From assembly GCA_965552055.1 (NCBI GenBank), contig CBEVQO010000002.1:256001-320000 (forward strand): 64,000 nt of DNA. The letters are read 5' to 3'. Under the pieces are notes generated by a model. That model saw only the letters and a program-made list of their open reading frames with translations, was not told the origin of the DNA and did not search any database. Source of the stretch: an uncultured bacterium. GTDB taxonomy: Bacteria > Hydrothermota > UBA3073 > NMUJ01 > CBEVQO01. Positions within the stretch are counted from its first letter, which is position 1, and each line of letters begins with the position of its first letter. Below, piece by piece: positions 36,950-55,786 of this stretch. Position numbers and translations under genes: made by a program.

Positions 36950-36957
36950 TTCTCCTC

Positions 36958-37086: not shown

Positions 37087-37097
37087 ATCCCCTCCTT

Positions 37098-37232: not shown

Positions 37233-40200
37233 TTTGCACCTCCTATTCCTATACGGAATATCTTACCGGATGTTGTAAATGTAATTACTCCTTGAGCGAC
37301 ATTTAGCATTGGAGTAGATTCTATTTTTTGTCCCGGGTCAAATTTCCATAATATTTTTCCTGTTTTTTCTGATACCGCTATTAATCCCTTTTCTGTACCG
37401 ATATAAATCTTTCCGTTGTACACCAGGGGTTTAGTTGTTGGCTTTGCACTAATGTTCAGAGGATATTGTGCCCAGCCCCAGGGATTTGGATTTCCATCAA
37501 TATCATAACAATAGATATTACCAAGTGTATCCGCAAAGTATATTTTACCCCACCAGTACCATGGTCCTTTTATAGCCGGAGCATTAAGTACATCCTGCCA
37601 AATTAAATCATAAGGCTGAGCTCTTAAACTATCGAGGCAATAAACATTTTTCTTAATGTTGCCAAAGTAAATCCTATAGTGGCTACCTGCCACTCTTCCA
37701 AATGCCGGTATATTAACGATATCTCCATCTGTTCCGTATTTTGCCTGCTCTACTCCTGTACCCGCACCGATTTTGTAAAGCGTATCGTCACATGAACCAC
37801 CATGCAGGAAACCGAATCCGTATCCCGGCATCGCTCTTATCGCGCCTCCTGTAGAGAAAGACCAGATAACACTGCCATCACCTCTATCAACTGCATAGAA
37901 ATTACCATCCTTTGCTCCAAAGTAAATTACACCACCATATTCAAATACACCGGAGATTATAGAATCACCAATATTCGTCCGCCATATCACATCACCATCT
38001 GTCCTGTTAACTGCATATAAAGTGCCAGCAGATGTGCCAAAGAACAAAGTATCACCTCTCACACAAATCAAATCACTTGCATAACCTCCATATTTTTTCT
38101 TCCATAAGAGATTACCCAAACTGTCGACAGCATACAATGTGCCGGATTTTGTAGAATAATAACTGGCACCATCAAATGCATGACCTATTCCTGAAGTTAC
38201 ATCTTTCCTGAATATCCTGATACCTGGATGTTGCCACTTTAGATCGATGTAAGCGGAATCTTTCCAAACTATTTGTGCACCATTAAGTTCTTCTTCATAC
38301 AATTCTCCTGAATGCTCTCCCATATAATTTTCACAGAAGATATAAATACCTGCACCATTCGCAGAAATATTTTTGTAACATGTAGTATCAAATAATAGAC
38401 CGCTGTAAGTATCGGAGTAAGCAGATGTTTTTATCACCCGCAAAGCTTTTGAAAGAGAGGACATATTCATAAACCATACATTTTCAAGAGTATCTATTTG
38501 TGATGTTGTATCGAGAATGAGACCCGATATTCCATCGCATAATAATCTGCTGATACTAACATTTCCTTTCAATCTTACTTCTGGATATTTTACACCCTGC
38601 TGTGTGGATGTTATTGAAGGCATTAAACCTTTTGCTATGAATTTGCCTTTTGCTATAAGATTTGCACCTACTTTTACTTCTGCCAGTGAGTCAATTATAA
38701 AAGCCGAATTTTGATCGATGGTAAGAACATTCTGCACTTTTAGAACAGATTTTCCTGAAAGGACGAAATCTGCATCCTGGAATTTGAGGTTATAGAAGTA
38801 ATTATTTTGTCCCTGTATTATTTTTACACTATCTTTTGCGATGACTATTTCTCCAGCTGAAGGCGTGAATGTTCCACCTGTATCTATCCAGTCACCCATT
38901 ACAATGTGAGTATAACTGCCAGGGTCAAATTCTCCCTTTAGAATCTTGAAATCACCGTAAATTGTTAGAGGACCTGTTGCAGTAACAGATGCTACCTGCT
39001 TTGTAGAATCTTTTTCTTCTTTCTTTGTAGAATAAGAATTTTCGATTATAAGATTATAAAACTTACTTTGCGATATTTGTTGCGGTTGATCACCGCAGAA
39101 AATGCAAGTCGAAGAATCAGGGATAAATTCACCGTTATTTATCCAGTCTCCTTTGATTCTTATAGTATCATCATTTGCCTTAAATACTCTTCCTGCATTT
39201 ATTTGTAAATCGTTAAGTATCACCAAATTATTCGTCAGTTTTATTGTATCTGCGTCTATTGTGAGGTTATAGAATGTATCTTCGGGTACATCCATTTTTG
39301 CCTGCAATATAACTGTGCCTGTTTGTGGCATAAACTTACCCTGATTAATCCATGAAGATGTCTTGAAAATAGCTCCTTCTCCTCCTTTGAATACTGCGCC
39401 TGTCCCAATATGGAAGCTATCTGTAACAGTGACCGTAACTCCTGCTGCAAGCGAAAGCGTATCGCCAGATATAACCAAGGACTTAAATGTTTCCGAATTC
39501 GTTATACAATTAGTTCCATCGAAAGTTACGACTCCTGCTGTCTGCTGGAATGTTCCGTTGTCAATCCATGTACCTGCGCAGAATATTGTAGATTTTGAAA
39601 TAAGATTTATTCCACCGCCTTTTTCTATCTTCACATTTCCATTGCAATCAAGATACATTCCGGGGACCGTCAAATTTACATTCGCTCCATTTTTCACAAA
39701 TATTGCAGCACATTGTGCAGTAGTGTTCACGGTTGGATCGAAAGGTGCATCCTGAATTATAACCTGATCTGTTGCAGTAGGCACTGTGCCATCCTGCCAG
39801 TTAGAAGGATTATCCCATCTATCATCAACTGTGCCTGTCCATACATCTGCAAGTATCCATTCTATTCTTGCGTACTGCGTAGTTGTATCATAAGCATCTC
39901 CTGCCTTATCTCCGGAATATGCTACCATGGTTACAATCGCAGAATCAGGGGAAGTGCATTTTAAATGGAAATTATACTGACATGAAGCATCATAAGAGTG
40001 CCCACTAAATGTAGCCGTATATCCTGCATTTCTGTAAATCTGTAAGAATGTTCCACCTGACTCGATATTTGTGAAATTAATGCCATCGAGTGCAGCAATC
40101 TGAGCATCTTCCCATATCCTCAATCCTCTCTTACAAACTCTATTTACATTCAATGCAGTTACATCTATCTCTCCTCTTACTTCAAATCCAAAGTAAGACA

Positions 40201-43200
40201 AATTATTTATACTCGTTATAGTTGGTGTTACTCCATTTGCACTGAATTTTCCGCCATTTTCGATAAACAATGTATCTGCTACTTTAAGTGTACAACTGCC
40301 ACTAAGCTGTAAGAGACCTCCGGAATTCACAATTATGTAAGAGTTAGCACTGACAACAGAGCTATTGAGTGTTAAAATACTATCAACAATTATCGAATCT
40401 CTAATAGTGTGTCTTCTATTCACGAAATCAAATTTCCCTTTCTTAATCCACAATTTTCCATCTATTTGAGTGCCTGTCTTTGTAACAACCTGTGTTCCTG
40501 AATCTATTATCACATCATAGAAATTATTTGTCGATTTCTGATATATTTCCTGATTTTCTCCGCAAAGTATAATTTCACCTGCTGATGGCGTAAATGTACC
40601 GAGAGTATCATTCCAGTTACCCTTCACATAGTGCGTGTAAGTACCTGGCACAAATTCTCCTGCTTCTATTACAAAATCTCCATATATCCTTAGTGAACTC
40701 TGTGCTGTCACTGTTCCGGTTGATTTCACAATCACACTATAGAAATTATTCTGGGTCAATTGTGTAATATTTTGGGATGTTCCTGCAAATATTATCTTTC
40801 CTCCCGTTGGTCTAAATGTGCATCCTGTTTCTATCCAATCACCTTTTACCGTATGAGTAAATGTATCTGGGACAAATATACCCGATGCAAGCTCTATATC
40901 TCCATAAATCCGTAATTTAGATAGTGCTTTTAAAGTATCTGTTTTTTCAATCTTTATATCGTAGAAATTATTCCCATTGCCCAATTTGACTGTAGATTTG
41001 CTTCCCAAGAAGATAACCTTACCCGATGTAGGTGCAAATGTACCTGATACTGTATTCCAATCACCGTAAATCCTGTGAGTATAACTGCCAGGTATAAACT
41101 CTCCTGATAAAAGTGTTAAATCTCCTTTAATTACTAAACTATCAAGTGCGGTTACAGATGCAGTTGGCGCCATACTCAAATTATAAAGATAATTTCCTGT
41201 GCCTAATTTTATCTGCTGCGCACCTCCTGCAAGATAAACAGTACCATCATCTGCTTTGAATTCGCCTCCTGAAGCATCAAAATCACCCCGTACTTCAAGG
41301 ACATTATCGGACGGTATAAAGACTCCCGATTTTACAGTAAAATCATTTTTTACAAAGATATCTGTCTTCTGCCATATTGTATCGCCATCGATCTCAAGAT
41401 TTATGAAATAGTTACTTGCTTTTTGCCATATTTCACCTTTTCCTGTTAAGACTATTTTTCCGCCAACCGGATTGAATGTCCCTCCCGTATCCACCCAATC
41501 ACCACCAATATAATGCGTAAAACTACCTGCAATAAATTTACCTTTATTTATTACAAAATCACCATGCACATGTAAAGAATCAAAAGCTTCCACACTTGTA
41601 AGGCAATTTATCTCGACATTATTAAAGTAGTTTGTCTGACTTGAGGTGATTTTCTGATAATTTCCTGTAAACTTTATTTTTCCTCCTGTTTGATGAAATG
41701 TTCCCAATACATCACTCCAATCGCCTTTAACTTCATGGGTAAAGGTATCTGGATTGAATGTACCTGTTATCGTTATATCCCCATAGATCTTCAGCGGTGT
41801 TTTTGCAGTTACAGTACCTGCTATTTTAATATTTGCAAAGTTATTATCTTGTGCCTGCCATATTTCTGAATTACCGGTAAATCTTATTTCACCACTTGTA
41901 GCTGTAAATGTTCCTCCTGTATCTATCCAGTTTCCTTCAACATAATGGATATAACTTGCTGGTGAAAATTCGCCTTTCAGCAACACAAAATCGCCTTTTA
42001 TATTAATCGGTGACTGACATAGCACTTTTCCCGAATTCTTATTAATCGTTAAATTATAGAAGTAACTTTGCGGTGTTAGATTTATTACCTGCTGGTAATC
42101 TCCACAGAATATTATTTCACCTGAATCTGCATAGAGTGTTCCATTTACTATTAAATCTCCTTTTAAATACAGTTTAAATGTATCACAATGTAAATAAGCG
42201 CTATCGTCTATTCTAAGGGACATGCAATATGCATTCGTATCGAGGTATGGGAATCTAACAGCAGTATCTGGTATTACGACATCTTCTGTATCCGTAGGCA
42301 CTCCTGGTGGCGACCAGTTATTGGGATTGCTCCATAAACTATCAACATCTCCCTGCCATACTCTCTGCGCAATCCAGTAAATGTGAGCTTTATTAACCTC
42401 TTCATCATAACTCTCACCTGCTTTTGCACCCGAATAATTTACCATATAAATCACTGTAGAATCTCCACCACCATCTGCATAAACATTCACACTGCAAGAT
42501 GCATCAAAATAACAACCTGTGAAGTTTTGAATAAATAGACCTTTCCTGTAAATTTGCAGATGTTTCCCTTTATTACCCACTTTCTCAAAACTCACATTAT
42601 TCAAACTAATTATTTCTGCAAGTGTGTCAATATAGAATCCATCACTATCCGCATATGAGAATTTCAATCTTTCACAATTTAATTTTCCTGAAAATCTAAA
42701 TGAAAAGCGATTCAATGTATCGAGTGCAGTTATTTGCGGTGTCAAACCTGTAAACTCACAATAAGAACCTTCCTGCGCCTTAAATGTTTCTCCTACTTTC
42801 AAAATAGATGCTCCCTGCATTATTAAAGTATCATTAATCACAATATATTTTCCTCTCAATTCTCCGCCTGTCATCTTTAAATTGCCGGAAATTATCACAC
42901 TATCTTCAACTGTATGTACTCCTGTTTGTATATCAAGTTCTCCTGTGAGTAACTTTAATTTTGAATTTATTTTAAGACCGGTTAATGGAGTAACTTTTTG
43001 AGAGTTTAATGTCAGGTTGTAGAAATTGTTTTGCGAAGATGTGATAATTTCTATGGTATCACCTTCAAATTTTATCTCACCTGCTGTTGGATTAAATTTA
43101 CCATTTTGGTCGTTCCAATTACCTTCGATTATATGAGTAAATGCCCCGGGTTCAAATCTTCCACCGCTTATTGTGATATCGCCCTTCACTCTAATAGGCG

Positions 43201-46200
43201 TTTCTGCTATTATCGTATCTGTAAGGTTTGGAGTTATATCAAGATTTGCAAAGTAATTATTTTCACCCTGATAAATTTTTGATGTTCTTCCTGTTAATAC
43301 AATTTTACCATCTGTAGGCTGGAAAACCCCTCCTGTATCAATCCAGTTACCTTCAACAGTATGAGTATAACTACCTGCATAAAATGTTCCTTTCTTCAGT
43401 ATGAAGTCTCCTTTTAATGTAAGAGCAGAAGATGCTGTTAACTGAGATAAATTCTTTTCTATTATAATTGTATTGAAGTAATTACCATTTGCTAATTCTA
43501 CCTGCGCAGAAGCATCCCCTCTAAATACAAATTTGCCGGAGTCAGCCGTAAAGACCCCTTGAGATGTAAAGTTTCCATAAACGATATGGGTATAACTCCC
43601 GGGATTTAAACTTCCAGACTCTATCGTAAGATTACCTTCACAGATGATTGATGATTTTAAGTAAGTATTGGATGTTTTAATTGTGAAATTCTGGAATCTA
43701 TTTTTAACAGTATCCTGTAGCACATTTGATACACTTCCTGTAAACCAGACATCAGCATTTGCTGGGAATACAACCACTCCTCCTGTGTCAATCCAGTCTG
43801 CTCCTACTTTAATAAGCGAAGGTGCATCAAATACCCCGGAATTCAAAACAAAATCTCCTTTAAGGGTTATATTTGTTTTTGCACTCAAAGTATCCTGAAC
43901 TTTTATTTCAATATTTGCAAAGTAATTATTTGCGCCTTGCCATATTTCTCCTTCTTTACCGTCGAACAATATCTTTCCTTCTTCTGCTGTAAATACCCCT
44001 CCCGTATCAATCCAGTCACCCCGCACCGTATGGGTGTAAGAACCTGCTTCAAATATACCCGAAGATAACATGAAATCACCGTAAATTTTCAATGCACTCT
44101 GTGCAAATACGGTATCACTTGCTCTAATTTCAAGATTAGCAAAGTTATTATTTGAACCTTGAATTATCTTAAATTTATTTCCATCCAGTATTATCTTCCC
44201 AGAATCTTGTGTAAATATAACTGCTGTATCAACCCAATCACCTGCTATCTCGTGCACATAACCCCACGGCTCTATCACTCCTGATAACATGTAAAGCGCA
44301 CCATTAACATCTATAGGCGAATCAAAGTAGACACTATCTGCATTTATTTCCATCTCGTAGAAGTAATTATCTGCATCCGTCAAAATGTGTTGCACTGCTC
44401 CATTGAACACAATTTTGCCTGCAGAAGGTCTAAATATACCTCCAGTATCCACCCAGTCACCTTTTACATAATGAGTATAAGATGAAGGCTCAAATCCTCC
44501 TTTATAAATCATAAAATCACCTTCTATTGTCAATCCATCTTGTGCAATTAATTCCCCGCCTGTGCTATTTATTATTATCTTATCAAATGCGCTTAAACCA
44601 CCCTTTACATATTGGTCGCTTCCACCATTAAATACAACATCAGAACCTCCGTGAATAAAATTACCGTCATTTATCCAGTCACCTCCAACATAAATCGTAT
44701 ACCCTTTTCCTTTCAATGTTTGCTTGATGTGTAAATCATTCATGCATATCAGCTCAGCATTCAGACTGTCTATTGCATTTATTACAAGGTTATAAAATGT
44801 ATCCTGTGGTAATGTCATATCTGCAAGAAACTCAACCGTGCTTTGCTCATAATGGAATTTACCGGAATTATTCCAGCTATAAACCTGTATCAAGGTATTT
44901 GTTCCTCCATGGAAATCTGCATTTGTGCCTATTATGAAATTATTTGTAATTTTCAAAGTATCGCCATAATTTACACTTACATTTGAATTATCCGCAAACT
45001 TCAAATTATAGAATGTGCATTTGCCTGAAATTACCCCTGTTGACTCTATTACAACCCATCCACCTGTATGGTTGAATACGCCATCATTTGTAAAGTCATT
45101 CCATACAAACAATGTTCCATCTGATAAATCAAATTGACCTTTAATTGTAAAATCACCCTGCACATGTAATATTTTATCCGAATTCATTGTAAGCTTTGCT
45201 CCACTCTTTATCAACACTCCTGCACATGTATCTGTGATATTTAAAATTGGATAATTATTATTCGCATTTGCTGGTATTATTACGAGTTCTGTATCTACAG
45301 GTGGTCTTCCTAATGACCAGTTTTTGGCATTGTGACTCGCAGGCAGACCAGCAGCTACTGCATCCCACCAGCTGCTATTTGTTCCTCCAACCCACACATC
45401 TGCACTCGTCCATTCAATATTGGCACCATTAACTTCATGATCATAGTTTTCACCCGCTTTACTTCCGCTTGCTCCACTCATTATTATATCAACATTATTA
45501 CCACCACCGTCAGCATAAACATTTGTATCACAGTATTGATCATAAGAATGCAAACTAAATGTAGCGTTAAAATCAGCATTTCTATAAATTTGCATATAAA
45601 CTCTATGTCCCGTGCCTCTTTGATTTGTAAACTTTACTTCATCTAACCTCGTAATCTGTGCCTGATTATAAATACATAAGCCTCCTGTATCTATATAAGA
45701 TATGGTTAAACCATCTATTTCGAGTTCTCCATAGACATTGAAATCAAAGGGTTTTGTTGTATCTTTTGCAGTAATTTCCGGAGAACCCGAAGTAAATATC
45801 TTTCCTCCATTTGCAATGTAAAGTTGTGTTCCCAGCTTCAATGCCGGGCTTCCTATTAATTTAAGCACCCCTCCTGATTGCACATTAAGCCCTGTTCCTA
45901 CTTCAAGTACAGATGTACCAAGATCAAGCGTTCCATAAACATTTACACCGGAAGCTACTTTATGTGTTAACCCATCTGAAAGATATAGTTCACCTGCGTT
46001 TATCAGCAATGCTCCATTTATATTAAGACCATCTTCCGCTGTTGCTACTCCTGTAACATCTATTGTTAAATTATAGAAGTTATTTGTCGCAGATGTATAA
46101 ATGTGCGGATTTTCACCATTAAGAATTATTGTCCCACCTGTAGGTTTAAATACTCCTCCTTTATCATACCAATCACCGCCTATTTCATGAGTAAAGTTAC

Positions 46201-49200
46201 CGGGTATAAATGTTCCTGACAATATTGCAAAGTACCCTTCTGTTTTCAGTGCTGTCATAGCCCATACAGTATCCGAAGGGTTTATTTTCACATTGTTGAA
46301 ATGATTACCAATTTTTGCATAAATCTTCTGTTTCGTTCCATCAAATATTATGGTCGAAGTTGTATCTATAAATATTCCTCCGGTATCTGCCCAGTTGCCT
46401 CCAATTCTATGAGTATATGCATTTGGTACAAATTCACCGGATAAAATCACAAAATCGCCATTTATATCCAGTGAATCTGCTGCTATAAGTTTATTTGTAA
46501 CCTCACATATTACATTATTGAAGTAATTACCTGCCTTTGTATTTATCTGCTGTGTAACTCCGTCAAAAATTATTGTTCCTGATATTTGATTAAATATTCC
46601 TCCCTCATCATCCCAATCACCTGCCACCCGATGCGTGAAACTACCAGGGTTAAATGTACCTGTTATTGTAATATCGCCATCAACATTTATAGAAGTATAT
46701 GCCGTTATGTTTCCAGAAATCGTAAGATTATAAAAGTTATTACCTGTACCCTGATAAATACCTTTATTAACACCGGAAAGTATTATCTCGCCTTCCTGTG
46801 CTTTAAACTCTCCGAGAGTATCAATCCAGTTACCATTAACTGTGTGAGTATAATCACCCGGTATGAATTTTCCTTTGATTTCAACATCGCCATTTATTTG
46901 CAGATTACTTTTTGCGATCGCTGTTCCTTCACATACAAAATCGTTGAAAATTTCATCATCTGTATAAATTTGTGATGAATCAATGAAGATAACCTTACCT
47001 GCATCTTGTTTAAAGTATCCGCCTATTGCATAAAAATCACCGCCTATTCTGTGGGTATAAGATTGAGCATAATAAACTCCCTGCAATATTTTAAAATCAC
47101 CCATAATCTTTATAGAATCAAGTGCTGTAACGGTATCATTTGCCTGTATCACTAAATTGTTGAAGTAATCATTTGCACTAACATTTATTTGTTGCTTATT
47201 ACCTGCAAATATCACAGTTCCCGTTAAATCCTGTATTACACCTGTTTCGGAATCCCAGTTGCCCTCTACCTGCAATTCGAAAGTATCGAGTATTAATTGA
47301 CCCGATGTAATTTTGACATCTCCTTTTACAACTACATCTGTTTGTAATGTTAAATTATTATCAACATCTATTTCTATATTATGGAAGTAATTTCCTTCTT
47401 TCTGTTTGATAACTGCATTTTGTCCGTTAAACAATATTTTTCCGGAAGTCGGTCTGAAAGTTCCATTTATTTCATACCATCCACCACCTACTATATGTGT
47501 GTAAACACCTGGTATGAATTCTCCCGATTTCAATGTAATATTGTTCTTTATAATTATTGGACCACCTGCTGTTATGCTTCCTGTTTGCTTATTGATAACA
47601 AGGTTGTAAAATTCTCCTGAATCTCCGAGTGCTATTTGATTTGCAAGTCCTGTAAATTCTATAGTCCCGTCACCTGCATCAAATCTTCCCATATTATGCA
47701 TATTTCCTTTTATAACGAGAGTATAGGAACCTCCGGGTCCTTCTTTAAATCTTGCACCTGTTTCGATGTTTAAGGAAGCAATTGTATCATCCATATCAAG
47801 AACAGGGTAATTTGTAAGTCCTCCTGGTATTACCACATCTTCTGTATCTGCTGGCAGACCAACTGGATCCCAGTTAAACGGATTACTCCACAAAGTATCT
47901 TGCGCCCCTGTCCATACTTTCTTTATCATCCAGATAATTTCTGCACCATTGACTTCCTCATCGTAATCTTCACCTCCCTTGGGACCAGAATAATCTGAGA
48001 AAATTAACCTTACCGAATTACCATAACCATTTGCATAAACATTTGTATCACATGAAGCATCAAAGGAGCAGCCAAGAAATTCTTTCTCAAAATCGGCATT
48101 TCTATGAATTTGTAAATGCCTGCTCGGATTGCCTCCCGGTTGTACACTCTGGAATGATACATTCGAAAGATCAATTATTGTAGCACTTGTATCAATATAC
48201 ATACCATTGACATCGGCTCCTGAAAATACAAGGCGCAAAACTTCGATTTCTCCTCTTACTTTAAAACTATAATAATTTATTCCATCATTCTGAATTTTAG
48301 GCGTCGTACCGAATGCCTCAAATTTGCCGTCAATCAAAGCCGCTTTTCCTAGCGTAAGTACACATTGATTCTCCATATAAAGGACACCTGTTTCTTTTAT
48401 TATCAAAGAATCACTCACTTTTAACTCACTCTGTCCAAGATGTAATGAATCTTCCGCTATTACCTTGCCATCTACGGTATGGGTTAAAGCATCACCAAGA
48501 TAAAATGTTCCTGAAATTATTCTCAAATTACCTTTTACTGTTATATTTGTCTGCGTTTCTATTCTTCCTGTCCCTTCAATTATTAGATTATTAAAATGAT
48601 TTGTTGCACCCTGATTTATAGTGGCATTTTCTCCTATCAATTTCACTGTTCCTGTAAGGTCTGTAAATGTTCCTCCTGCATCCGACCAGTTACCTCCGCA
48701 TATTACAGTATCTTCTATAGAGAATGTACCCTGTTGCAATGTAAAATCACCACCTATTAAAAGTTTAGTCTTCGCAGTAGCAACTCCAGATACATTAATT
48801 GTCAAATTGTTGAATTTATTACCTTCTTTCTGATAAATAACAGGTGATATTCCATCAAGCACCACACCACCTTCTGTTTGCACAAACTCACATAGAGTAT
48901 CGACCCAATCACTCGCAATATAGTGAGTATAAGCACCAGGAAGTATAACACCCGATTTCATCACAAAGTCACCATTTACATCTATCTGTGACTTAAATTC
49001 AACAGTATCTGTGCTGCCTACATCTATCACAAGATTCCATAGCTTGCTACCTGTATTTAATTGTAAATCTTTTGTGCTTCCTTGCAAAATTACTGTCGCT
49101 GCATCAAAGTCAGTATTTCCTCCTGCTTCTATCCAATCACCATCCACCCATAAAGTACATGCTACGGCATCTTTCAAATATCCACTCTGCAAAGTAAAGT

Positions 49201-52200
49201 TATTTACTTTTATATTTGTCTCAAGATTAACTACACTTCCGGTATTTATGGTGAGATTTGCGAAATTGTTATTTGCACCCTGTTTTATGTATATGGTATC
49301 TGCATCATCAAGCACTATCTCACCCTGTGATGGTTTAAATGTACACAATGCATCATCCCAGTTGCCACAAATGTAATGAGTGTAAGCACCCGGAATTATT
49401 ACACCATTTTGCATTATAAATTCAGAGTTTACATCGATAGATGACGCAAATTCAACTGTATCCTGAGCATTTTGTAACGCAATTTTTAGCTTATAGAAAT
49501 TATTCCCTGTTCCTTGCTTTATTTGTTGTTTGCCTGTTCCACATATCACTATCATTCCGGAATCCGGTGTAAACACTCCTCCTGCATCATCCCAATTACC
49601 CTTCACATAATGAGTAAAGTTACCGGGATTAAATTCTCCTTGCCTCAATTTAAAATCTGTAACCGTGATTGATGTCTTCGCATAAAGAACACCTCCTGTC
49701 TTATCAACAATTAATTTATTGAATGTTATTGCATTCCCTTTTATCTCTTGATTTCCTGTGCCATTAAAAATCACTATTCCAGAACCTGCATCAAAACTTC
49801 CATTGTTCATGAAATCACCACCAACATATAATGTACAATTAAGTGCTCTTAATGTCTTTGTTGATAATATCTTCAAATCATTCTTCACCACAAGCTTCGT
49901 ATAAGGTATCTTCGCATTAGCACCTATTGTGAGATTGTAAAATACTTCATTTGGCACTATTGTATCCCTAACGATAACTTCACCTGTTTGGCAATCAAAT
50001 GTTCCACCTGAATTGTTCCAACCTTTTACATCAAATACTGCGTTGTTTCCTCCATAAAATGTAGCTCCTGACAATAAGTTAAAACTATTTGTTACTTTTA
50101 CTGTTTCGCCATCTGCGATACCAACACCTGCTCCTGTGATTTTTATATTTAAAAATGTAGTACTCCATATCTTTGCGTTGGCACCATAAAATTCAACTAA
50201 ACCGCTTCGCTGATCAAATACTCCTCCCATATTTTTCCAGTTGCCTCCTACTCTTATCACACTATTCGAATCTTGCACAATCTTCGCACCGGATTTTAAT
50301 TCAACATCTCCTGATACATTCAAAGTACATACAGTATCTACATATAGCATTGTTGAAGAAAGTAAAAGTATTGATGCACATTCTGCGTGCAAAGTGTCAA
50401 CATGTGGATATACAGACCTTTGAGGTATTAGGACTTTATCGTTGAGTTTAGGAATATCGTCCGGTGGATCCCAGTTATGCGCTTTGCTCCATCTCCAGTG
50501 AGTACCTGCTGGCCAGGGGGCACCCGTACCTCCAACCCACACTTTACCCATTGTCCACAAAACAGCACCTCCATTTGTCTCCTCATCATACGCTTCTCCA
50601 GCTCCACTACCAGCATAATAGAAAACTTTTAACTTTGCTACAGTATCCGTAGTGGATACACCACCATCTATGTGAATATTAACATCACCTGCATAAACGG
50701 TATCATAATAGTGGTCATAAATAGTTTTATCAAAAGTACCACTTCTATAAATTTGCAGAAATCTATCGGTACCTGCTGTGCGCTGTAAACTATCAAATCG
50801 AACACTCGAAAGATCTGTCAATGTTGCTGCTGGATAAATGTATAAACCATTTGAATTTAAGTATCTGAAAATTGCACCTTCAACATCAATTTCACCTTTT
50901 ACTCCAAAGCCATAATATTGTCCTGAATTTCGATGTGTTATCAATGGCTGAGCATTTCCTACGCTTCTCGTTACAAATTTACCTGTTGATGCAACTTCTA
51001 TCCCTTTTACCAGCTGTAACTGTGCTGCTCCTTCCATTTTCATTAAACCTGCAACTATCACAGTATCCGCTGCTATGCCTCCGCCAGAATTTTTCATCAC
51101 CACACCACCTGATTGTCCTATTTCCATTTTGCCCGTTAGTAAACCTTTTGAATTGAGTATTAAAACACCCGATTTTACTTTTGTACTGTCAAGAACCATC
51201 AAATTACTTTGTGCCTTTACTGTATCACTTTCTATCACAAGTAGATACAAAGTATCTGTCCCAATGTCTATATTCTGTACCTCTCCGTTCAAAATAATTT
51301 TACTATTTTTCACAAGAAGCTTTCCATCTGCTGATTTAAAATCACCTTTTATTCTGTGAGTAAAGTTACCTCCATCGAATACACCTTGCTGATAGATCCA
51401 AAACATTCCATGAATATTCAGAGAATCTTGCGCTTTTATAGTATCGGATGTGCTTATTCCAAAGTTATAGAAGTAATTGCCTGTCCCAAGGTAAATATTT
51501 GATTTTCCGGGAAAACCAATCCAACCTGAAGTCGCATGGAAAATACCTCCTCTACTATCCCAATCTCCATAAACTTTCATTACTGTTTGAGGCGGAATAA
51601 ACTCACCTTGTGTTATAACAAAGTTACCTTTCACAATTATTCCTGTGTTTGCTTTCTTCGAATAAGCAGTATTTATCTCAAGATTATAAAAGGCATTCTT
51701 GGTTGTATCCTGATAAATAGAGTCAGCATATCCATCAAGTACTATTTTGCCAGAAGAAGGATTGAATACACCTCCCAAATCCCACCATGTACCGCCTATA
51801 TAGTGAGTATAAGAATCAGGATAAAATACGCCCGAAAGTATCTTAAAGTAACCATCAACATTTAATGAAGATTGAGCTTTTAATGAATCTTCTACTTCTA
51901 CCTTCACATTGTAAAAGTTATTTCCACTACCTGTTTTAACATCTTGTTTTATCCCTGTGAAATGCACGATCCCTGATGTCGGCGTAAATGTACCACCGGT
52001 ATCCACCCAGTCACCTTTTATCTCTATGTAGCTACCGGGTACAAAACTGCCTGATGAAAGAGTAAAGTCACCAAAAATTTTCAAAGGAGTAAGCGCCTGA
52101 CAATTTGAAGATATCTTCAGGTTATAAAAGTTATTCTTTGAAGTGTCTTGATATATTACCTGAATTCCTGTTCCATTAAATACGATTTCTCCAGACGATG

Positions 52201-55200
52201 GTGCAAACTTACCCTGCCTATCATCCCAATTTCCTTCTATGTAATGTGTGTAAGACTGAGGAATAAATTCTCCACCCAAAATTGTAAAATCACCTGTGAT
52301 CTTTAAAGAAGTTTGTGCTACTACACAATTTGTAACATTTATTTCAACATCAGCAAATTGATTATTCGCACCTTGCCATACATTTGAAGAATCACCATCA
52401 AATACAAACTTGCCAGAAGTTAATAATCTTCCTCCAGTATCATCGTAATCACCACCTACTCTATGTGTATAACTTCCGGCATCGTAACATCCTCCTTGTA
52501 TCTCAAAGTTTCCTTTCACAGTAATATCCGAAAGCGCCCATACTGTATCTGACACATTTATAACAAGATTGTTGAAGTAATCTCCTGTTAATAGTGTTAT
52601 CCTTTGTGTATCTCCATCGAAGATAAAAGTACCTGCATCTGCCCTAAACACTCCACTTATATTTTCAAAGTCGCCAGCTATTGTATGAGTAAAAGATTGG
52701 GGGTCAAATTCACCTTCCCTTATTCTTAACTTACCATCTATATCGAGCGAAGAATAGGCAACAACTTTCCCTGCTAGTTTATAAATATCAAGGTCATAAA
52801 TTGAACTGCTATCCGTTATCTTTATAGATTGATTATATTCACCTCTGAAACATAATTTACCTGTCCCGGGAATCAGCTTACCGTTATCTTCAAAATTACC
52901 AAAGATGTAAAGAACATTTGACTTCAATTTTAACTTTGCACCTGGATTTATCTTTACACTAAAAGCATATCCTGCAACATCAAGCACAGGGTCTCTTATA
53001 GTATCTGGTATTACTACATCTGAAGATTCATCTGGTACTCCTGCTGGCTTCCAGTTATTGGGATTACTCCACAAAGAGTCAACCGCTCCTGTCCAGCGTT
53101 TCTGTATGAGCCATTTTATCTCCGCACCATTTGTCTCTTCATCGTAAGCCTCTCCTGCTTTAGGACCGCTATACCCCGACACAAAAATTTTAACATTACC
53201 ACCTGCACCATCAGCATGGATATTTGTATCACATGTAGCATCAAAATATAAACCTATTAAAGTAACATTGTAAGTCCCTTGCCTATAAATATGCAAATGA
53301 GTGCTCGGATTACCACCAGGTTCAACATTCTCAAAAATAACATTGGAAATATTTTGTATAACTGCTGGCGTATCTATTACCATTCCTTCACTATTAGCAT
53401 AACTGAAATAAAGTTTTGTAATGTTTACAGTTCCCCTTATTTTAAATGAATAGTAAGTTGATGGAGATATGGATGTAACTGTAGGCGCTGCTCCCTCCGA
53501 GATAAACGAACCTGTTTCTCTTATAAGTACTCCTTTTGCTAACCTTAAAATAGAACTACCATAAAGATGCAAAACTCCATCACTCACAAGATTGCCTACC
53601 ACCACTAGATCACTACCTGATACATTAAGCTCACCCGATTGACCAATATAGACGCTATCTTTTAAAGTATCGTAGTAACCTGTTGAAAGATCAAATTCTC
53701 CTGAAACAACTTTTAGTAAACTATCCACTATTAATTTGCTGCTCATTAAAGCTGTACCTGTCACATTTATCGTTAACCTATTAAATTTATTACCCGAACC
53801 AAGATTAATTTGAGGAGATGTGCCTGCAAATACTATTTCGCCAGCTGAAGGAGAAAATGCACCCCCTGATACATCGAAATCTCCTTTTATTGTGTCAACA
53901 TAATTTCCAGGGTCGAAGCTTCCACCGTTTATTATCTTAAAATCGCCAAAAATTCTAAGACTCGTATTTGCTACTGCGTTTCCTCCATCAATTGTTAAAG
54001 AATAGAAATTATTTGTAGATGATGTTGTTATCTGAGGATTTGCTCCGGTTAAAATTATTTCTCCTGCTGTCGGTGTAAACTCAACTTGCGTATCATCCCA
54101 ATTCCCACTTATCCTGTGAGTATATGAACCTGGGTCAAATTTCCCACTTTCAAGATAAAGTGCACCATTCACAGTTATATTACTTAATGCTGTGACAGTA
54201 TTTGTGGGTCTTAAGATTAAATCATTAAAATAGTTGCCCGCACCCTGTGTAATTTGCTGGTTAACTCCACAGAAAACAATGCCTCCTTGAGATGCTTTGA
54301 AAATACCGCCCGCATCAGACCAATCTCCTTTTACAGTATCTCTGTAAGGCGAGGGTATAAATGTTGCATTATTTTGAATTGAAAAATCACCATAAATTGC
54401 AATACAACTTTCAGCTTCTACTGTATCTGCAACAATCCATAAGTTATAAAAATGATTTTGCGGTGAAGTGTAAATATATGTATGTGTGTTTCCACCAAGT
54501 TCAACACGCCCTGCATTTGGCTTAAATTCTCCATTTGTAACATCAAAATTACCTTTCACTTTCAATACATATGATTGTGGGTCAAAATAGGCATTTTCCA
54601 ATGTAAAATCACCATCAATAGTGAGATCGGACAACATTCGAATTGTATCACCCGAAAGCACCTCAAAGTCATAAAAACTATTTGTTGATAACTGTGTTAC
54701 TTTAAACAAAGAATTTGTTGTTGAAATACTTATTTTACCTTGACCATGCTGGAAAGTGCCTGCTTCTTCTAACCACTCTGTTCCCGAAAGATTTATTGTA
54801 TTGCCATTTTGATTGTAAGTGCCATTCTTCAAAACGAATTTTCCTTGAACCGTTATTGAAGTAACCTGGATAACAGTACCTGTTGCATTTATCACAAGAT
54901 CATTTAAATAAGATGTAGCACCTGTAACTTGTAAAGTCTCTACGCTACTTCCTGCAAATATCACACAACCTGTTCCACAATCAAAGTTCACTACCTTAAA
55001 ATCGCCTTTTACTGTCAAAGTCTCATCCTCTGCTCGACAGATACCAGTAGAAGTAACTACAAAATCATTTTCACAGGTTATATCTGTCTTCAAAGTACAC
55101 TCACCTGCTATTTCAAGGTTATAATAGGTCTCATCGGGTACGCCCATATCACCGGCAAGGACGACCGTACCCGTGCCATAATTGAATACACCATTATTTT

Positions 55201-55753
55201 CCCATTTTTTACATATTATCAACCTCGTATCGTTACCTGCATTTAAAATACCCGAAGATATTATCTTTAAACTGTCAGTCTTCGCACTATCTCCATCGTT
55301 AATTGAAATTTCGCCCGAGATTAAAATATTTTTGAATCTTCCCTCATTATGAATGACCGCTCCTTCTTCAAATTCTATGGTGCCATCAATTTGCCGTAAA
55401 GTTCCTTCATCGATCCAATGTCCTCCCACGGAGATAGTATAATTAGAGTTTAATCTTAAAATACCATTTGAACGAATTATTACATCGTGTTCAACTGACA
55501 GATTTTTATCAACGGTAAGCGATTCATCTTCAATTATGAGCCAACCGCATTCAGCGTCGTCCGAAAAAATGCGCGGACAACTGCGACCCGATGCTAAACT
55601 TGGAATCTTAACACTATCCGCAGTGGTAGGCACTCCTTTAGGTATCCAGTTACTCGCTCTATGCCAGTCAGAATCAGTGGAACCATTCCAAGTTCTAAGT
55701 ACCCCATAGAGGGGTAACGAAAAAAGAAAAATTATCACAGAAAATTTTTTCAT
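37178..55753 (-). CDS. Giant secreted repetitive protein (6191 aa): seven beta-solenoid-like super-modules plus C-terminal PQQ-like beta-propeller
   Basis: Uninterrupted ORF; signal peptide MKKFSVIIFLFSLPLYG; 7x W.G...W..P.NW...P start motif and 7x Y.G..(A/G/S)G(E/D).Y(D/E)...W end motif; C-terminal G.LYA...G...W blades. Confidence 0.92.
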   Translation of the reverse strand: MKKFSVIIFLFSLPLYGVLRTWNGSTDSDWHRASNWIPKGVPTTADSVKIPSLASGRSCPRIFSDDAECGWLIIEDESLTVDKNLSVEHDVIIRSNGILRLNSNYTISVGGHWIDEGTLRQIDGTIEFEEGAVIHNEGRFKNILISGEISINDGDSAKTDSLKIISSGILNAGNDTRLIICKKWENNGVFNYGTGTVVLAGDMGVPDETYYNLEIAGECTLKTDITCENDFVVTSTGICRAEDETLTVKGDFKVVNFDCGTGCVIFAGSSVETLQVTGATSYLNDLVINATGTVIQVTSITVQGKFVLKNGTYNQNGNTINLSGTEWLEEAGTFQHGQGKISISTTNSLFKVTQLSTNSFYDFEVLSGDTIRMLSDLTIDGDFTLENAYFDPQSYVLKVKGNFDVTNGEFKPNAGRVELGGNTHTYIYTSPQNHFYNLWIVADTVEAESCIAIYGDFSIQNNATFIPSPYRDTVKGDWSDAGGIFKASQGGIVFCGVNQQITQGAGNYFNDLILRPTNTVTALSNITVNGALYLESGKFDPGSYTHRISGNWDDTQVEFTPTAGEIILTGANPQITTSSTNNFYSLTIDGGNAVANTSLRIFGDFKIINGGSFDPGNYVDTIKGDFDVSGGAFSPSAGEIVFAGTSPQINLGSGNKFNRLTINVTGTALMSSKLIVDSLLKVVSGEFDLSTGYYDTLKDSVYIGQSGELNVSGSDLVVVGNLVSDGVLHLYGSSILRLAKGVLIRETGSFISEGAAPTVTSISPSTYYSFKIRGTVNITKLYFSYANSEGMVIDTPAVIQNISNVIFENVEPGGNPSTHLHIYRQGTYNVTLIGLYFDATCDTNIHADGAGGNVKIFVSGYSGPKAGEAYDEETNGAEIKWLIQKRWTGAVDSLWSNPNNWKPAGVPDESSDVVIPDTIRDPVLDVAGYAFSVKINPGAKLKLKSNVLYIFGNFEDNGKLIPGTGKLCFRGEYNQSIKITDSSSIYDLDIYKLAGKVVAYSSLDIDGKLRIREGEFDPQSFTHTIAGDFENISGVFRADAGTFIFDGDTQRITLLTGDYFNNLVINVSDTVWALSDITVKGNFEIQGGCYDAGSYTHRVGGDYDDTGGRLLTSGKFVFDGDSSNVWQGANNQFADVEINVTNCVVAQTSLKITGDFTILGGEFIPQSYTHYIEGNWDDRQGKFAPSSGEIVFNGTGIQVIYQDTSKNNFYNLKISSNCQALTPLKIFGDFTLSSGSFVPGSYIEIKGDWVDTGGTFTPTSGIVHFTGIKQDVKTGSGNNFYNVKVEVEDSLKAQSSLNVDGYFKILSGVFYPDSYTHYIGGTWWDLGGVFNPSSGKIVLDGYADSIYQDTTKNAFYNLEINTAYSKKANTGIIVKGNFVITQGEFIPPQTVMKVYGDWDSRGGIFHATSGWIGFPGKSNIYLGTGNYFYNFGISTSDTIKAQDSLNIHGMFWIYQQGVFDGGNFTHRIKGDFKSADGKLLVKNSKIILNGEVQNIDIGTDTLYLLVIESDTVKAQSNLMVLDSTKVKSGVLILNSKGLLTGKMEIGQSGGVVMKNSGGGIAADTVIVAGLMKMEGAAQLQLVKGIEVASTGKFVTRSVGNAQPLITHRNSGQYYGFGVKGEIDVEGAIFRYLNSNGLYIYPAATLTDLSSVRFDSLQRTAGTDRFLQIYRSGTFDKTIYDHYYDTVYAGDVNIHIDGGVSTTDTVAKLKVFYYAGSGAGEAYDEETNGGAVLWTMGKVWVGGTGAPWPAGTHWRWSKAHNWDPPDDIPKLNDKVLIPQRSVYPHVDTLHAECASILLLSSTMLYVDTVCTLNVSGDVELKSGAKIVQDSNSVIRVGGNWKNMGGVFDQRSGLVEFYGANAKIWSTTFLNIKITGAGVGIADGETVKVTNSFNLLSGATFYGGNNAVFDVKGWNNSGGTFDCQTGEVIVRDTIVPNEVFYNLTIGANAKIPYTKLVVKNDLKILSTKTLRALNCTLYVGGDFMNNGSFDAGSGIVIFNGTGNQEIKGNAITFNKLIVDKTGGVLYAKTSITVTDFKLRQGEFNPGNFTHYVKGNWDDAGGVFTPDSGMIVICGTGKQQIKQGTGNNFYKLKIALQNAQDTVEFASSIDVNSEFIMQNGVIIPGAYTHYICGNWDDALCTFKPSQGEIVLDDADTIYIKQGANNNFANLTINTGSVVNLETNIKVNNFTLQSGYLKDAVACTLWVDGDWIEAGGNTDFDAATVILQGSTKDLQLNTGSKLWNLVIDVGSTDTVEFKSQIDVNGDFVMKSGVILPGAYTHYIASDWVDTLCEFVQTEGGVVLDGISPVIYQKEGNKFNNLTINVSGVATAKTKLLIGGDFTLQQGTFSIEDTVICGGNWSDAGGTFTDLTGTVKLIGENATINQGATNHFNNLIIEGTGRIETQTNITVKGNLRIISGTFYLGDALTHTVDGKVIAEDSLHLGQSELKVSDSLIIKETGVLYMENQCVLTLGKAALIDGKFEAFGTTPKIQNDGINYYSFKVRGEIEVLRLVFSGADVNGMYIDTSATIIDLSNVSFQSVQPGGNPSRHLQIHRNADFEKEFLGCSFDASCDTNVYANGYGNSVRLIFSDYSGPKGGEDYDEEVNGAEIIWMIKKVWTGAQDTLWSNPFNWDPVGLPADTEDVVIPGGLTNYPVLDMDDTIASLNIETGARFKEGPGGSYTLVIKGNMHNMGRFDAGDGTIEFTGLANQIALGDSGEFYNLVINKQTGSITAGGPIIIKNNITLKSGEFIPGVYTHIVGGGWYEINGTFRPTSGKILFNGQNAVIKQKEGNYFHNIEIDVDNNLTLQTDVVVKGDVKITSGQLILDTFELQVEGNWDSETGVIQDLTGTVIFAGNKQQINVSANDYFNNLVIQANDTVTALDSIKIMGDFKILQGVYYAQSYTHRIGGDFYAIGGYFKQDAGKVIFIDSSQIYTDDEIFNDFVCEGTAIAKSNLQINGDVEIKGKFIPGDYTHTVNGNWIDTLGEFKAQEGEIILSGVNKGIYQGTGNNFYNLTISGNITAYTSINVDGDITITGTFNPGSFTHRVAGDWDDEGGIFNQISGTIIFDGVTQQINTKAGNYFNNVICEVTNKLIAADSLDINGDFVILSGEFVPNAYTHRIGGNWADTGGIFIDTTSTIIFDGTKQKIYAKIGNHFNNVKINPSDTVWAMTALKTEGYFAILSGTFIPGNFTHEIGGDWYDKGGVFKPTGGTIILNGENPHIYTSATNNFYNLTIDVTGVATAEDGLNINGALLINAGELYLSDGLTHKVASGVNVYGTLDLGTSVLEVGTGLNVQSGGVLKLIGSPALKLGTQLYIANGGKIFTSGSPEITAKDTTKPFDFNVYGELEIDGLTISYIDTGGLCIYNQAQITRLDEVKFTNQRGTGHRVYMQIYRNADFNATFSLHSYDQYCDTNVYADGGGNNVDIIMSGASGSKAGENYDHEVNGANIEWTSADVWVGGTNSSWWDAVAAGLPASHNAKNWSLGRPPVDTELVIIPANANNNYPILNITDTCAGVLIKSGAKLTMNSDKILHVQGDFTIKGQFDLSDGTLFVWNDFTNDGVFNHTGGWVVIESTGVISGKCTFYNLKFADNSNVSVNYGDTLKITNNFIIGTNADFHGGTNTLIQVYSWNNSGKFHYEQSTVEFLADMTLPQDTFYNLVINAIDSLNAELICMNDLHIKQTLKGKGYTIYVGGDWINDGNFIHGGSDVVFNGGSDQYVKGGLSAFDKIIINSTGGELIAQDGLTIEGDFMIYKGGFEPSSYTHYVKGDWVDTGGIFRPSAGKIVFNGAVQHILTDADNYFYEMEINADSVYFDSPIDVNGALYMLSGVIEPWGYVHEIAGDWVDTAVIFTQDSGKIILDGNKFKIIQGSNNNFANLEIRASDTVFAQSALKIYGDFMLSSGIFEAGSYTHTVRGDWIDTGGVFTAEEGKILFDGKEGEIWQGANNYFANIEIKVQDTLSAKTNITLKGDFVLNSGVFDAPSLIKVGADWIDTGGVVVFPANADVWFTGSVSNVLQDTVKNRFQNFTIKTSNTYLKSSIICEGNLTIESGSLNPGSYTHIVYGNFTSQGVFTADSGKFVFRGDASAQVELANGNYFNTIIIEKNLSQLTASSALTLKGDFILKKGTFYAGSYTHTVEGNWIDTGGVFQPTDGKIVLTGRTSKIYQGENNYFANLDITPNLTDTIIAETPIRVKGDITISGGRFEPGAFTHIIEGNWNDQNGKFNPTAGEIKFEGDTIEIITSSQNNFYNLTLNSQKVTPLTGLKINSKLKLLTGELDIQTGVHTVEDSVIISGNLKMTGGELRGKYIVINDTLIMQGASILKVGETFKAQEGSYCEFTGLTPQITALDTLNRFSFRFSGKLNCERLKFSYADSDGFYIDTLAEIISLNNVSFEKVGNKGKHLQIYRKGLFIQNFTGCYFDASCSVNVYADGGGDSTVIYMVNYSGAKAGESYDEEVNKAHIYWIAQRVWQGDVDSLWSNPNNWSPPGVPTDTEDVVIPDTAVRFPYLDTNAYCMSLRIDDSAYLHCDTFKLYLKGDLIVNGTLYADSGEIIFCGDYQQVINLTPQSYFYNLTINKNSGKVLCQSPINIKGDFVLLKGEFSPASYIHYVEGNWIDTGGTFTATSGEIRFTGNSEIWQAQDNNFANIKIAGTVTAKTPLKIYGDITITGTFNPDTFTHEVKGDWSDVLGTFHQTGGKIKFTGNYQKITSSQTNYFNNVEINCLTSVEAFDSLHVHGDFVINKGKFIAGSFTHYIGGDWVDTGGTFNPVGGKIVLTGKGEIWQKASNYFINLEIDGDTIWQKTDIFVKNDFTVKSGVFIPSDNVLEVRGDFDASGGEFKADDGTVYLAGGAQQIKLGTGNYLYNLSMAPTASVTALDSLVIKGDLTLLSGEFIPGSYTHRIYGDWNTVSGTFAPTSGKVIFLGSKSTVKLGNGNNFYDIKIEKTDTLKALSKLRIYGDIELASGIFVPDTFTHTVKGDWIETGCTFRPTGGKIIFAGTSQNITQLTQNNFYSVIVKSTGTVTAQSSLRIYGDFVIEAGEFVPGTYTHYVKGNWNDTLGTFTPSAGEIILCGENQEIYQKSTNNFYDVIIDSGTQVVTKTGTQIDGKLWIKKGKFDFVNRRHTIRDSIIVDSILTLNSSVVSANSYIIVNSGGLLQLSGSCTLKVADTLFIENGGKFSANGVTPTITSINNLSYFGFEVRGEIDVTALNVNRVCKRGLRIWEDAQIAALDGINFTNIESGGTFLQIYRNAGYTATFSGHSYDASCQYNFHLKCTSPDSAIVTMVAYSGDKAGDAYDTTTQYARIEWILADVWTGTVDDRWDNPSNWQDGTVPTATDQVIIQDAPFDPTVNTTAQCAAIFVKNGANVNLTVPGMYLDCNGNVKIEKGGGINLISKSTIFCAGTWIDNGTFQQTAGVVTFDGTNCITNSETFKSLVISGDTLSLAAGVTVTVTDSFHIGTGAVFKGGEGAIFKTSSWINQGKFMPQTGTVILQAKMDVPEDTFYNLTIDADTIKLTNNLVILNDLQINAGRVFKANDDTIRIKGDWINNGEFIPDSSTCIFCGDQPQQISQSKFYNLIIENSYSTKKEEKDSTKQVASVTATGPLTIYGDFKILKGEFDPGSYTHIVMGDWIDTGGTFTPSAGEIVIAKDSVKIIQGQNNYFYNLKFQDADFVLSGKSVLKVQNVLTIDQNSAFIIDSLAEVKVGANLIAKGKFIAKGLMPSITSTQQGVKYPEVRLKGNVSISRLLCDGISGLILDTTSQIDTLENVWFMNMSSLSKALRVIKTSAYSDTYSGLLFDTTCYKNISANGAGIYIFCENYMGEHSGELYEEELNGAQIVWKDSAYIDLKWQHPGIRIFRKDVTSGIGHAFDGASYYSTKSGTLYAVDSLGNLLWKKKYGGYASDLICVRGDTLFFGTSAGTLYAVNRTDGDVIWRTNIGDSIISGVFEYGGVIYFGAKDGNFYAVDRGDGSVIWSFSTGGAIRAMPGYGFGFLHGGSCDDTLYKIGAGTGVEQAKYGTDGDIVNIPAFGRVAGSHYRIYFGNIKKNVYCLDSLRAQPYDLIWQDVLNAPAIKGPWYWWGKIYFADTLGNIYCYDIDGNPNPWGWAQYPLNISAKPTTKPLVYNGKIYIGTEKGLIAVSEKTGKILWKFDPGQKIESTPMLNVAQGVITFTTSGKIFRIGIGGAKWKRKNGMNPNVKVRKSM

Positions 55754-55759
55754 TTTTTA

Positions 55760-55786
55760 ATTATAAACCGCTTTCGGGAGTGTCAA
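55760..55786 (-). promoter_or_regulatory. Promoter TTGACA-N15-TATAAT of the giant-protein operon, probably leaderless
   Basis: Perfect boxes; 6 nt to the ATG; no SD. Confidence 0.78.

What the first reader, a model, noticed from the sequence alone, without database searches (positions are those of the whole stretch)
38260..55690. Hierarchical ABABABA architecture of the 6191-aa protein
Seen: seven super-modules start at W.G..W..NW motifs near nt 55690, 53095, 50539, 47914, 45394, 42358 and 39841 (about 865, 852, 875, 840, 1012, 839 and 525 aa). Each ends in a Y.G..AGE.YDE..N.A.I.W-like motif. Odd modules share a (V/L)P.(E/D).(F/Y)YNL.I segment; even modules share D(S/T)LWSNP.NW.P.G(V/L)P....DVVIP. 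Inside are dozens of ~75-80 aa repeats (TH.V.G(D/N)W.DTGG.F.P..G.I.F.G...N.F.N(L/V).I). Repeats are diverged at DNA level, so this is not an assembly collapse. Inference: an ancient ~1.7-kaa A+B duplication produced a long segmented beta-solenoid rod (adhesin or surface filament).
Basis: partly seen in the sequence, partly recalled or inferred. Interest (0 to 1): 0.7.

Follow-up and report, generated by a model that had tools for sequence, protein, structure and literature searches.

The report
Giant alternating beta-helix surface rod
An uncultured vent bacterium has one intact 6,191-residue gene made of seven repeat-filled segments whose starting caps strictly alternate between two types; it is predicted to fold as a long beta-helix rod that is likely sugar-coated and displayed on the cell surface, relatives differ from it by whole two-segment units, and a second version in the same species shares only the last 764 residues.

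Summary
Module heads from eight homologues split odd from even (support 100/99). Two close orthologues have five modules and lack one A+B pair; Planctomycete homologues show a recent two-module duplication. Refinement: only the heads are A or B; tails and body repeats do not sort by parity.

Best reading: a likely glycosylated, C-terminally anchored surface filament whose length changes by unequal recombination between like heads. Export route and ligand are untested. The scan had no earlier look-alike by sequence. Verdict: new variant of a known kind.

The parts
55760..55786 (-). Promoter-like site: perfect -35 and -10 hexamers 15 bp apart, 6 nt before the start codon (transcript likely leaderless)
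   Evidence: sequence; function not tested
37178..55753 (-). Giant ORF, 6191 aa
55703..55753 (-). Likely Sec signal peptide (aa 1-17)
   Evidence: read by eye; no predictor run
53102..55696 (-). Module 1 (A head, 8 repeats, tail); with module 2 it has no positional counterpart in the five-module orthologues
50546..53101 (-). Module 2 (B head, 8 repeats, tail)
47921..50545 (-). Module 3 (A, 8 repeats); best match to module 1 of P0002/P0003
45401..47920 (-). Module 4 (B, 8 repeats)
42365..45400 (-). Module 5 (A, 10 repeats)
39848..42364 (-). Module 6 (B, 8 repeats)
38270..39847 (-). Module 7 (A, 4 repeats, short tail); holds the allele crossover near 39470-39520
37238..38269 (-). C-terminal BamB/PQQ-like beta-propeller, with no T9SS sorting domain after it
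   Evidence: Pfam PQQ_2 E 1e-19; propeller folds at Z 14-17 over the confident half of the model
37181..39472 (-). Constant 3' part shared with allele P0003 (aa 5428-6191, 2 differences in 764)
37098..37232 (-). 44-aa cysteine-containing peptide ORF with ribosome-binding site, overlapping the giant gene's end
36958..37086 (-). 42-aa paralogous peptide ORF (61% identical over 37 aa)
35477..36949 (-). 490-aa propeller protein with T9SS type A sorting domain; candidate partner
34521..35480 (-). 319-aa NTP_transf_5 (PF14907) nucleotidyltransferase-like protein

Best explanation
The gene encodes a seven-segment repeat protein predicted to fold as a right-handed beta-helix rod ending in a beta-propeller, which is likely exported, O-glycosylated and held at the cell surface by its C-terminal end as an adhesin or spacer filament. 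Each segment is a cap, 4-10 repeats and a ~190-aa tail (shown). Caps alternate between types A and B (shown). Because the array alternates, unequal crossing-over between like heads would add or remove whole A+B pairs, which fits the five- and seven-module forms seen (pattern shown, mechanism inferred). The distal ~5,400 residues differ between alleles while the propeller end is constant (shown), which fits a cell-proximal anchor and a variable exposed shaft (inferred). From recalled beta-helix geometry (19-25 aa and 0.48 nm per coil) the rod would be about 110-150 nm long (inferred). In this organism the T9SS-like machinery is the likely exit, possibly with help from the neighbouring propeller-CTD protein (untested).
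For: Fold: the junction model (624 aa, 23-row alignment) has pLDDT 95.4 and pTM 0.80 and is nearly all beta. Best structural matches are beta-helices: Vag8 passenger Z 18.5, rmsd 2.8, 236 aligned; tailspike Z 18.1; NosD Z 17.2. Alternation. Module number: P0002 and P0003 are full-length five-module proteins matching modules 3-7. P0005 and P0011 have five modules, P0008 seven, and P0006/P0008 carry a ~2,100-aa internal duplication at 73% and 62% identity. Allele: P0003; a contig of the same 22,169-bp length carries the window's downstream proteins at 98-99.6% identity; run X1 has a contig that follows the window to 39523 and then diverges, while another starts at 39468 on the window allele. Glycosylation motif: 87 vs 24.8 expected; 4.1-fold in 69 CTD proteins, 1.45-fold in 838 ORFs classed cytoplasmic, three control motifs 0.45-1.13-fold; 31 and 26 of 46 motifs kept in the orthologues. 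Export context: PorV over cut-off, SprA-like gene, no secretin or T2SSF found.
Against: The protein has no recognised outer-membrane sorting signal. The SprA match is below the family cut-off (77.8 vs 200 bits). No ligand, expression or localisation was tested. The beta-helix matches include lyases and tailspikes at tied Z scores, so fold does not give function. Foldseek found no PDB match at E<=0.001. The direction of the five/seven change in this lineage (gain here or loss there) and the source of modules 1-2 are unresolved. The 100%-identical stretch in P0006 could be an assembly effect. The head tree rests on windows with large indels, and I assigned P0006's parity by hand.
Confidence: 0.65

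Rival explanations
1. It is a polysaccharide-binding or -degrading scaffold: each tail is a pectin-lyase-like active or binding unit repeated seven times along the rod.
For: The region spanning the last repeats and the tail (model residues ~100-412) matches lyases, epimerases and tailspike depolymerases at Z 13-18. The nearest named Atlas clusters are beta-helix/NosD families at 0.79-0.81, leads only.
Against: Identity to those enzymes is 6-13%. No Pfam or NCBIfam enzyme family matches modules 1-7. The invariant columns across six modules are mostly Gly, Trp, Phe, Pro and Asn. Catalytic residues were not mapped.
Confidence: 0.12
2. It is a structural envelope component (periplasmic or surface-lying strut, or S-layer-like coat) rather than a projecting adhesin, retained because it lacks a CTD.
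For: No CTD; a consensus promoter suggests high expression; Bacteroidota O-glycosylation also acts on periplasmic proteins (PMC12871550, passages).
Against: An allele swap of the distal 5,400 residues fits an exposed target. Many homologues carry a CTD: PF18962 or PF13860 is listed for more than half of the 82 hits. No close homologue of module 4 appeared in 40 relatives; 3 gave partial matches.
Confidence: 0.13
3. The giant gene heads a RiPP-like cassette, and its propeller binds or displays the two small cysteine peptides after modification.
For: Two paralogous peptide ORFs with ribosome-binding sites are coupled to the gene end. NTP_transf_5 lies downstream. Other NTP_transf_5 loci in the phylum carry radical SAM-, PqqD- and kinase-like ORFs with cysteine-rich peptides, read by eye. 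The genome has one PqqD and a radical SAM/SPASM gene 3.7 kb beyond the nucleotidyltransferase.
Against: The G018 locus keeps the propeller-propeller-nucleotidyltransferase order without peptides (15-bp gap). The peptides match nothing in 271 other genomes of the phylum or in NCBIfam. PqqD is on another contig.
Confidence: 0.06
4. The seven-module form or the shared 3' end is an assembly chimera.
For: No single contig laid spans the gene; all data are contigs, not reads.
Against: Repeats share no 25-mer. Three runs from two studies cover all 30 bins, and X2's depth is roughly even (5.5-11.2). Listed contigs bridge module boundaries, for example X2 49536-50885 across M2/M3 and 51539-53539 across M1/M2, and X2 37988-39998 crosses the crossover on the window allele.
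Confidence: 0.04

Closest known systems
Autotransporter passengers (Bordetella Vag8 7akv, UpaB, antigen 43) and TpsA filaments (FHA, CdiA; recalled)
   Same: Right-handed parallel beta-helix rod; top structural match Z 18.5, rmsd 2.8, 236 aligned; likely adhesive surface role.
   Different: No C-terminal barrel and no TPS domain. In CdiA the C-terminus varies (recalled); here the C-terminus is the constant part.
Unnamed 3,500-6,800-aa T9SS-type giants of Bacteroidota, Ignavibacteria and unnamed records (e.g. P0004, P0007, P0012-P0014, P0049)
   Same: Same cap, repeat and tail parts by my HMMs; 22-36% identity to module 4 among the distant hits.
   Different: They end in a CTD. P0004, P0007 and P0012 have tandem like modules without alternation. 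None has a described function in the searches run.
Giant beta-helix proteins Cag_663/Cag_665 of 'Chlorochromatium aggregatum' (bioRxiv 10.64898/2026.03.19.712371; abstract and section 6 read)
   Same: Predicted rigid beta-helix filaments in a related superphylum, tied to cell-cell contact.
   Different: Far larger, no alternating caps or propeller tip described in the part read; homology to this protein not tested.
Bacteroidota general O-glycosylation system (PMC11611037 passages; PMC12871550 passages and section 7)
   Same: Motif D-(S/T)-(A/I/L/V/M/T) enriched in non-cytoplasmic proteins; third-residue profile also favours S, G, C, F in CTD proteins.
   Different: This genome lies in a phylum of 272 genomes that no call named. 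The review names only Fibrobacterota as a second enriched phylum in the text read; its Fig. 2A, which I could not see, may already show this one. No glycan was measured.

Membership tests
Right-handed parallel beta-helix (pectin-lyase-like/pertactin-like fold) | Model superposes on solved beta-helices | tested here: met
   (predicted model; Z up to 18.5 over residues ~100-439)
Classical autotransporter (type Va) | C-terminal translocator beta-barrel | tested here: not met
   C-terminus is a PQQ-like propeller
TpsA (FHA/CdiA) | N-terminal TPS domain | tested here: not met
   0 Pfam families at E<=0.01 in aa 1-1737
TpsA (FHA/CdiA) | TpsB transporter in the genome | tested here: inconclusive
   PF03865 not found, but it rang in 0 of 14 controls
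T9SS cargo | C-terminal sorting domain on the protein | tested here: not met
   absent from aa 5304-6191; present on the downstream 490-aa protein
T9SS cargo | T9SS machinery in the genome | tested here: inconclusive
   PorV over cut-off; SprA-like below cut-off; motor and sortase families not searched
G8-domain proteins | Pfam G8 (PF10162) match | tested here: not met
   no hit, although several homologues list PF10162
Polysaccharide lyase / tailspike depolymerase | Catalytic residues in the groove and activity | not tested
   fold likeness only
Bacteroidota-type O-glycoprotein | D-(S/T)-hydrophobic motifs enriched in non-cytoplasmic proteins | tested here: met
Bacteroidota-type O-glycoprotein | Glycan attached at the motif | not testable with these tools
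   needs glycoproteomics
Lasso or radical-SAM RiPP precursors (the two peptides) | Family match and maturase with RRE in the same locus | tested here: inconclusive
   no NCBIfam hit; Atlas named lasso-leader cluster only 0.78; PqqD on another contig; Pfam not run on the peptides

The most novel reading that the evidence does not exclude
The C-terminal propeller is an undescribed export and anchoring tag. CTD-less beta-helix giants dock through it onto a co-encoded propeller-CTD carrier and ride the T9SS-like translocon, while the exposed, O-glycosylated shaft is swapped between strains as a 16-kb cassette and resized in A+B steps. At least three secreted proteins of this genome end in this propeller, and one other family keeps the propeller-partner-nucleotidyltransferase order.
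Probability: 0.2. Interest if true: 0.8.

Novelty: new variant of a known kind. Interest (0 to 1): 0.55.

Why it matters
Giant beta-helix surface proteins are known, but this family has no Pfam or NCBIfam model for its modules. It shows a simple rule, alternating caps kept from this phylum to Planctomycetota and Nitrospirota with length differing by two-module units, which allows tests of how long solenoids are segmented and resized. The constant-anchor, variable-shaft alleles suggest surface variation in an uncultured vent bacterium. The motif statistics point to Bacteroidota-type O-glycosylation in a small phylum, bearing on where that system arose. A CTD-less 6,191-residue secreted protein in a genome where only T9SS-like genes were found raises a concrete question about cargo export.

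Tried and rejected
Whole-protein self-BLAST printed nothing off the diagonal; I split by module instead. The PDB sequence search with the module profile returned only polyubiquitin constructs among 18 rows; I rejected these as a likely repeat-period artefact (76 vs 74 aa; the three best had no stretch passing alone). Foldseek against the PDB gave no match at E<=0.001; the viral library gave 6 weak beta-helix/fibre matches with TM<=0.23. The propeller model was poor beyond residue ~665 because its alignment mixed in CTD-ended proteins. Both genome-contig scans returned no loci, so the gene neighbourhoods of P0002, P0005, P0006, P0008, P0010 and P0011 are unknown. No RNA holder was listed. Only 4 of 12 listed runs were laid, and the upstream end of the allele swap is unmapped; one search was uninformative on it. 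Binding between the giant's propeller and the 490-aa neighbour is untested. The deep search for peptide relatives had not returned when I stopped. No call named the phylum; WOR-3, used as a search term, is my guess only. Literature: nine searches showed no listing that describes this family, alternating caps or a propeller carrier. The library lacks most subscription journals, and no supplements were read. Against a general T9SS-carrier model: propeller-ended homologues occur in Planctomycetota and Nitrospirota, where PMC11285876 (passages) says T9SS genes are absent; the two in-genome paralogues with this propeller have no adjacent partner gene; and the G018 partner's CTD appears cut short.

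Full report
Observation. The window holds one 6191-aa ORF at 37178..55753 on the minus strand. The seven cap motifs fall at the stated positions and give modules of 865, 852, 875, 840, 1012, 839 and 526 aa. An iterated HMM finds 54 strong ~74-aa repeats (8,8,8,8,10,8,4) plus one weak hit, against one hit in 20 shuffles. No 25-mer of DNA recurs in the gene. Contigs from four runs of two studies were laid on the region: three cover 30 of 30 bins, one 25 of 30, and none spans the whole gene.

Anatomy. Each module is a cap, a run of repeats and a ~190-aa tail. A modules have a longer cap and two extra short repeats; B modules go straight into a standard repeat. The N-terminus looks like a signal peptide by eye. 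Pfam and NCBIfam give no meaningful family for modules 1-7 and no T9SS sorting domain. A perfect -35/-10 pair with a 15-bp spacer lies 6 nt before the start codon, matching an earlier scan note on this genome's promoters.

Fold. A 624-aa piece across the module 5/6 junction folded at pLDDT 95.4, pTM 0.80, almost all beta. Against 48,161 chains the best matches are right-handed parallel beta-helices: Vag8 (Z 18.5, rmsd 2.8, 236 aligned), phage tailspikes, NosD and lyases, at 6-13% identity. These matches mostly cover residues 100-412. Foldseek gave nothing at E<=0.001. Module 7 also folded confidently; half of the propeller did not. The beta-solenoid claim stands; function does not follow from it.

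Is A/B real? Leave-one-out profiles, with positional orthologues removed, classed 7 of 7 heads correctly. I picked 8 of the 82 hits (this protein included) that are built throughout of these modules and lack a CTD end. A tree of their 45 heads separates 26 odd from 19 even with one change, support 100/99, in all 200 bootstrap trees counted. P0006's parity was set by hand because it begins with a tail remnant. Against a whole-module split: tails of three proteins put B on one side at only 66/82, tails of eight proteins need 4 changes (quick method), and body repeats average 33.0% A-A, 34.6% A-B and 37.1% B-B. So parity lives in the heads. Three CTD-ended homologues (P0004, P0007, P0012) have tandem like modules and do not alternate.

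Module number. P0002 (4523 aa) and P0003 (4480 aa) are complete five-module proteins whose modules match modules 3-7 here at about 41-52% (90% for P0003's last), while modules 1-2 have no counterpart. P0005 and P0011 have five modules and P0008 seven; P0006 and P0010 are partial. Names given by sources: Planctomycetota for P0005's cluster, P0006 and P0010, Nitrospirota for P0011; P0008 is unnamed but 81% identical to P0006. P0006 and P0008 contain a ~2,100-aa internal duplication at 73% and 62% identity, i.e. one two-module unit. All 6 complete alternating proteins have an odd count and begin and end with A. Unequal crossing-over between like heads would give this pattern; that step is inferred, and gain versus loss in this lineage is not resolved.

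Alleles. P0003 is 33-57% identical per 200-aa bin up to residue 5427 and differs at 2 of the next 764 positions. A contig of P0003's length (22,169 bp) carries FabF (405/407), the 490-aa protein (488/490), the nucleotidyltransferase (313/319) and the flavin reductase-like protein (185/187); I infer it is the same contig, hence the same locus and species. In run X1, labelled hydrothermal vent metagenome, a 6,794-bp contig follows the window from 36001 to 39523 and then diverges, keeping only short matches to the gene, while another contig starts at 39468 on the window allele. I could not read the divergent part, so its identity with P0003 is inferred from the matching breakpoint. The upstream end of the swap is unmapped.

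Glycosylation motif. The protein has 87 D-(S/T)-(A/I/L/V/M/T) motifs against 24.8 expected. Among 1,375 ORFs of 200 aa or more, sorted by crude rules, the ratio is 4.07 in 69 CTD proteins, 3.04 in 214 with a hydrophobic N-terminus, 1.56 in 253 membrane proteins and 1.45 in 838 others; three control motifs are at 0.45-1.13. This is the Bacteroidota motif (PMC11611037, passages; PMC12871550, passages and section 7). It is not a fold effect: among 22 homologues the ratio is 2.9-3.6 in this group and two Ignavibacteria proteins, 0.5-1.0 in the Planctomycete/Nitrospira group and 0-0.3 in six Bacteroidota proteins. Nine CTD-type ORFs from other genomes of the phylum give 137 vs 56. Glycosylation itself is inferred.

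Neighbours and export. Downstream, with no terminator-like site between the genes, lie two cysteine peptides, a 490-aa propeller with a sorting domain and an NTP_transf_5 gene. Among 271 other genomes of the phylum, G018 (same class, another family) gives the best match to both the 490-aa protein (E 3e-44) and the nucleotidyltransferase (E 1e-41). There they follow an ORF cut by the contig end that also ends in this propeller type (E 4e-32) without a CTD; it has no peptides and no match to my module HMMs. The genome (97% complete) has PorV and a weak SprA-like gene; secretin and T2SSF were not found while controls rang in 6 and 13 of 14 genomes. Two more secreted proteins here (1817 and 1478 aa) end in tail plus the same propeller but have no adjacent partner. 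Propeller-like ends also occur in P0006, P0008 and P0011 (E 3e-6 to 5e-5; P0005 not significant), in phyla said to lack T9SS (PMC11285876, passages). A carrier model is therefore possible here but not general, and binding is untested.

Comparison and verdict. It works like a long beta-helix adhesin but is not an autotransporter, a TpsA protein or a CTD-bearing T9SS cargo by the features tested. I also saw the abstract and passages of bioRxiv 10.1101/2023.11.21.568195, which link bacterial giant proteins to adhesion, and the abstract and section 6 of bioRxiv 10.64898/2026.03.19.712371. Nine searches showed no listing describing this family; other papers were seen only as listings, and supplements and figures were not seen. 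The scan had no look-alike by sequence; archaeal sequon-rich beta-helix giants it noted are analogues only. Verdict: a new variant of a known kind, interest 0.55.

Noticed in passing
whole genome G000: The Bacteroidota-type O-glycosylation motif is enriched about 4-fold in CTD proteins and 3-fold in other secreted-looking proteins, in a small unnamed phylum.
   Followed up: partly
window 36958-37232 (-): Two paralogous 44- and 42-aa cysteine peptides with a shared leader-like start; the first overlaps the giant gene's last codons. No relatives found in 271 genomes; the nearest Atlas clusters are unnamed (0.89).
   Followed up: partly
G000:C1:130809-136262, C3:94305-98741, C2:181575-184961: Paralogues reuse the cap and tail as a mobile block: two end in the same propeller, one in a CTD, behind unrelated N-terminal domains.
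   Followed up: partly
L069:8146-12772 (G018:C118): Same propeller - propeller/CTD - nucleotidyltransferase order with a different beta-helix-looking front end; the partner's CTD appears cut short.
   Followed up: partly
L070, L071, L072, L074: Other NTP_transf_5 loci of the phylum look like radical SAM/PqqD/kinase peptide clusters (L070, L074), or follow a ~1,540-aa CTD protein with kinase- and PqqD-like ORFs (L071, L072); read by eye.
   Followed up: no
G000:C7:47998-48853: The genome's only PqqD gene sits beside a kinase-like ORF directly before the grpE-dnaK-dnaJ-like genes, with no precursor seen.
   Followed up: no
P0014, P0016, P0042, P0049, P0053, P0081: Bacteroidota homologues strongly avoid the glycosylation motif (ratio 0-0.34) while Ignavibacteria and this lineage are enriched.
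   Followed up: no
window 55820-60727 (-): Upstream genes: DUF212, a family-2-like glycosyltransferase and two DUF3857/transglutaminase-like proteins; link to the giant gene unknown.
   Followed up: no
window 2438-3694 (+): A 418-aa ORF joins a DNA-methyltransferase-like part to a thermonuclease-like C-terminus, both below family cut-offs.
   Followed up: no
G000:C8:2787-4298: Four tandem ~128-aa ORFs about 376 bp apart scored alike in the peptide search, suggesting a DNA repeat array.
   Followed up: no
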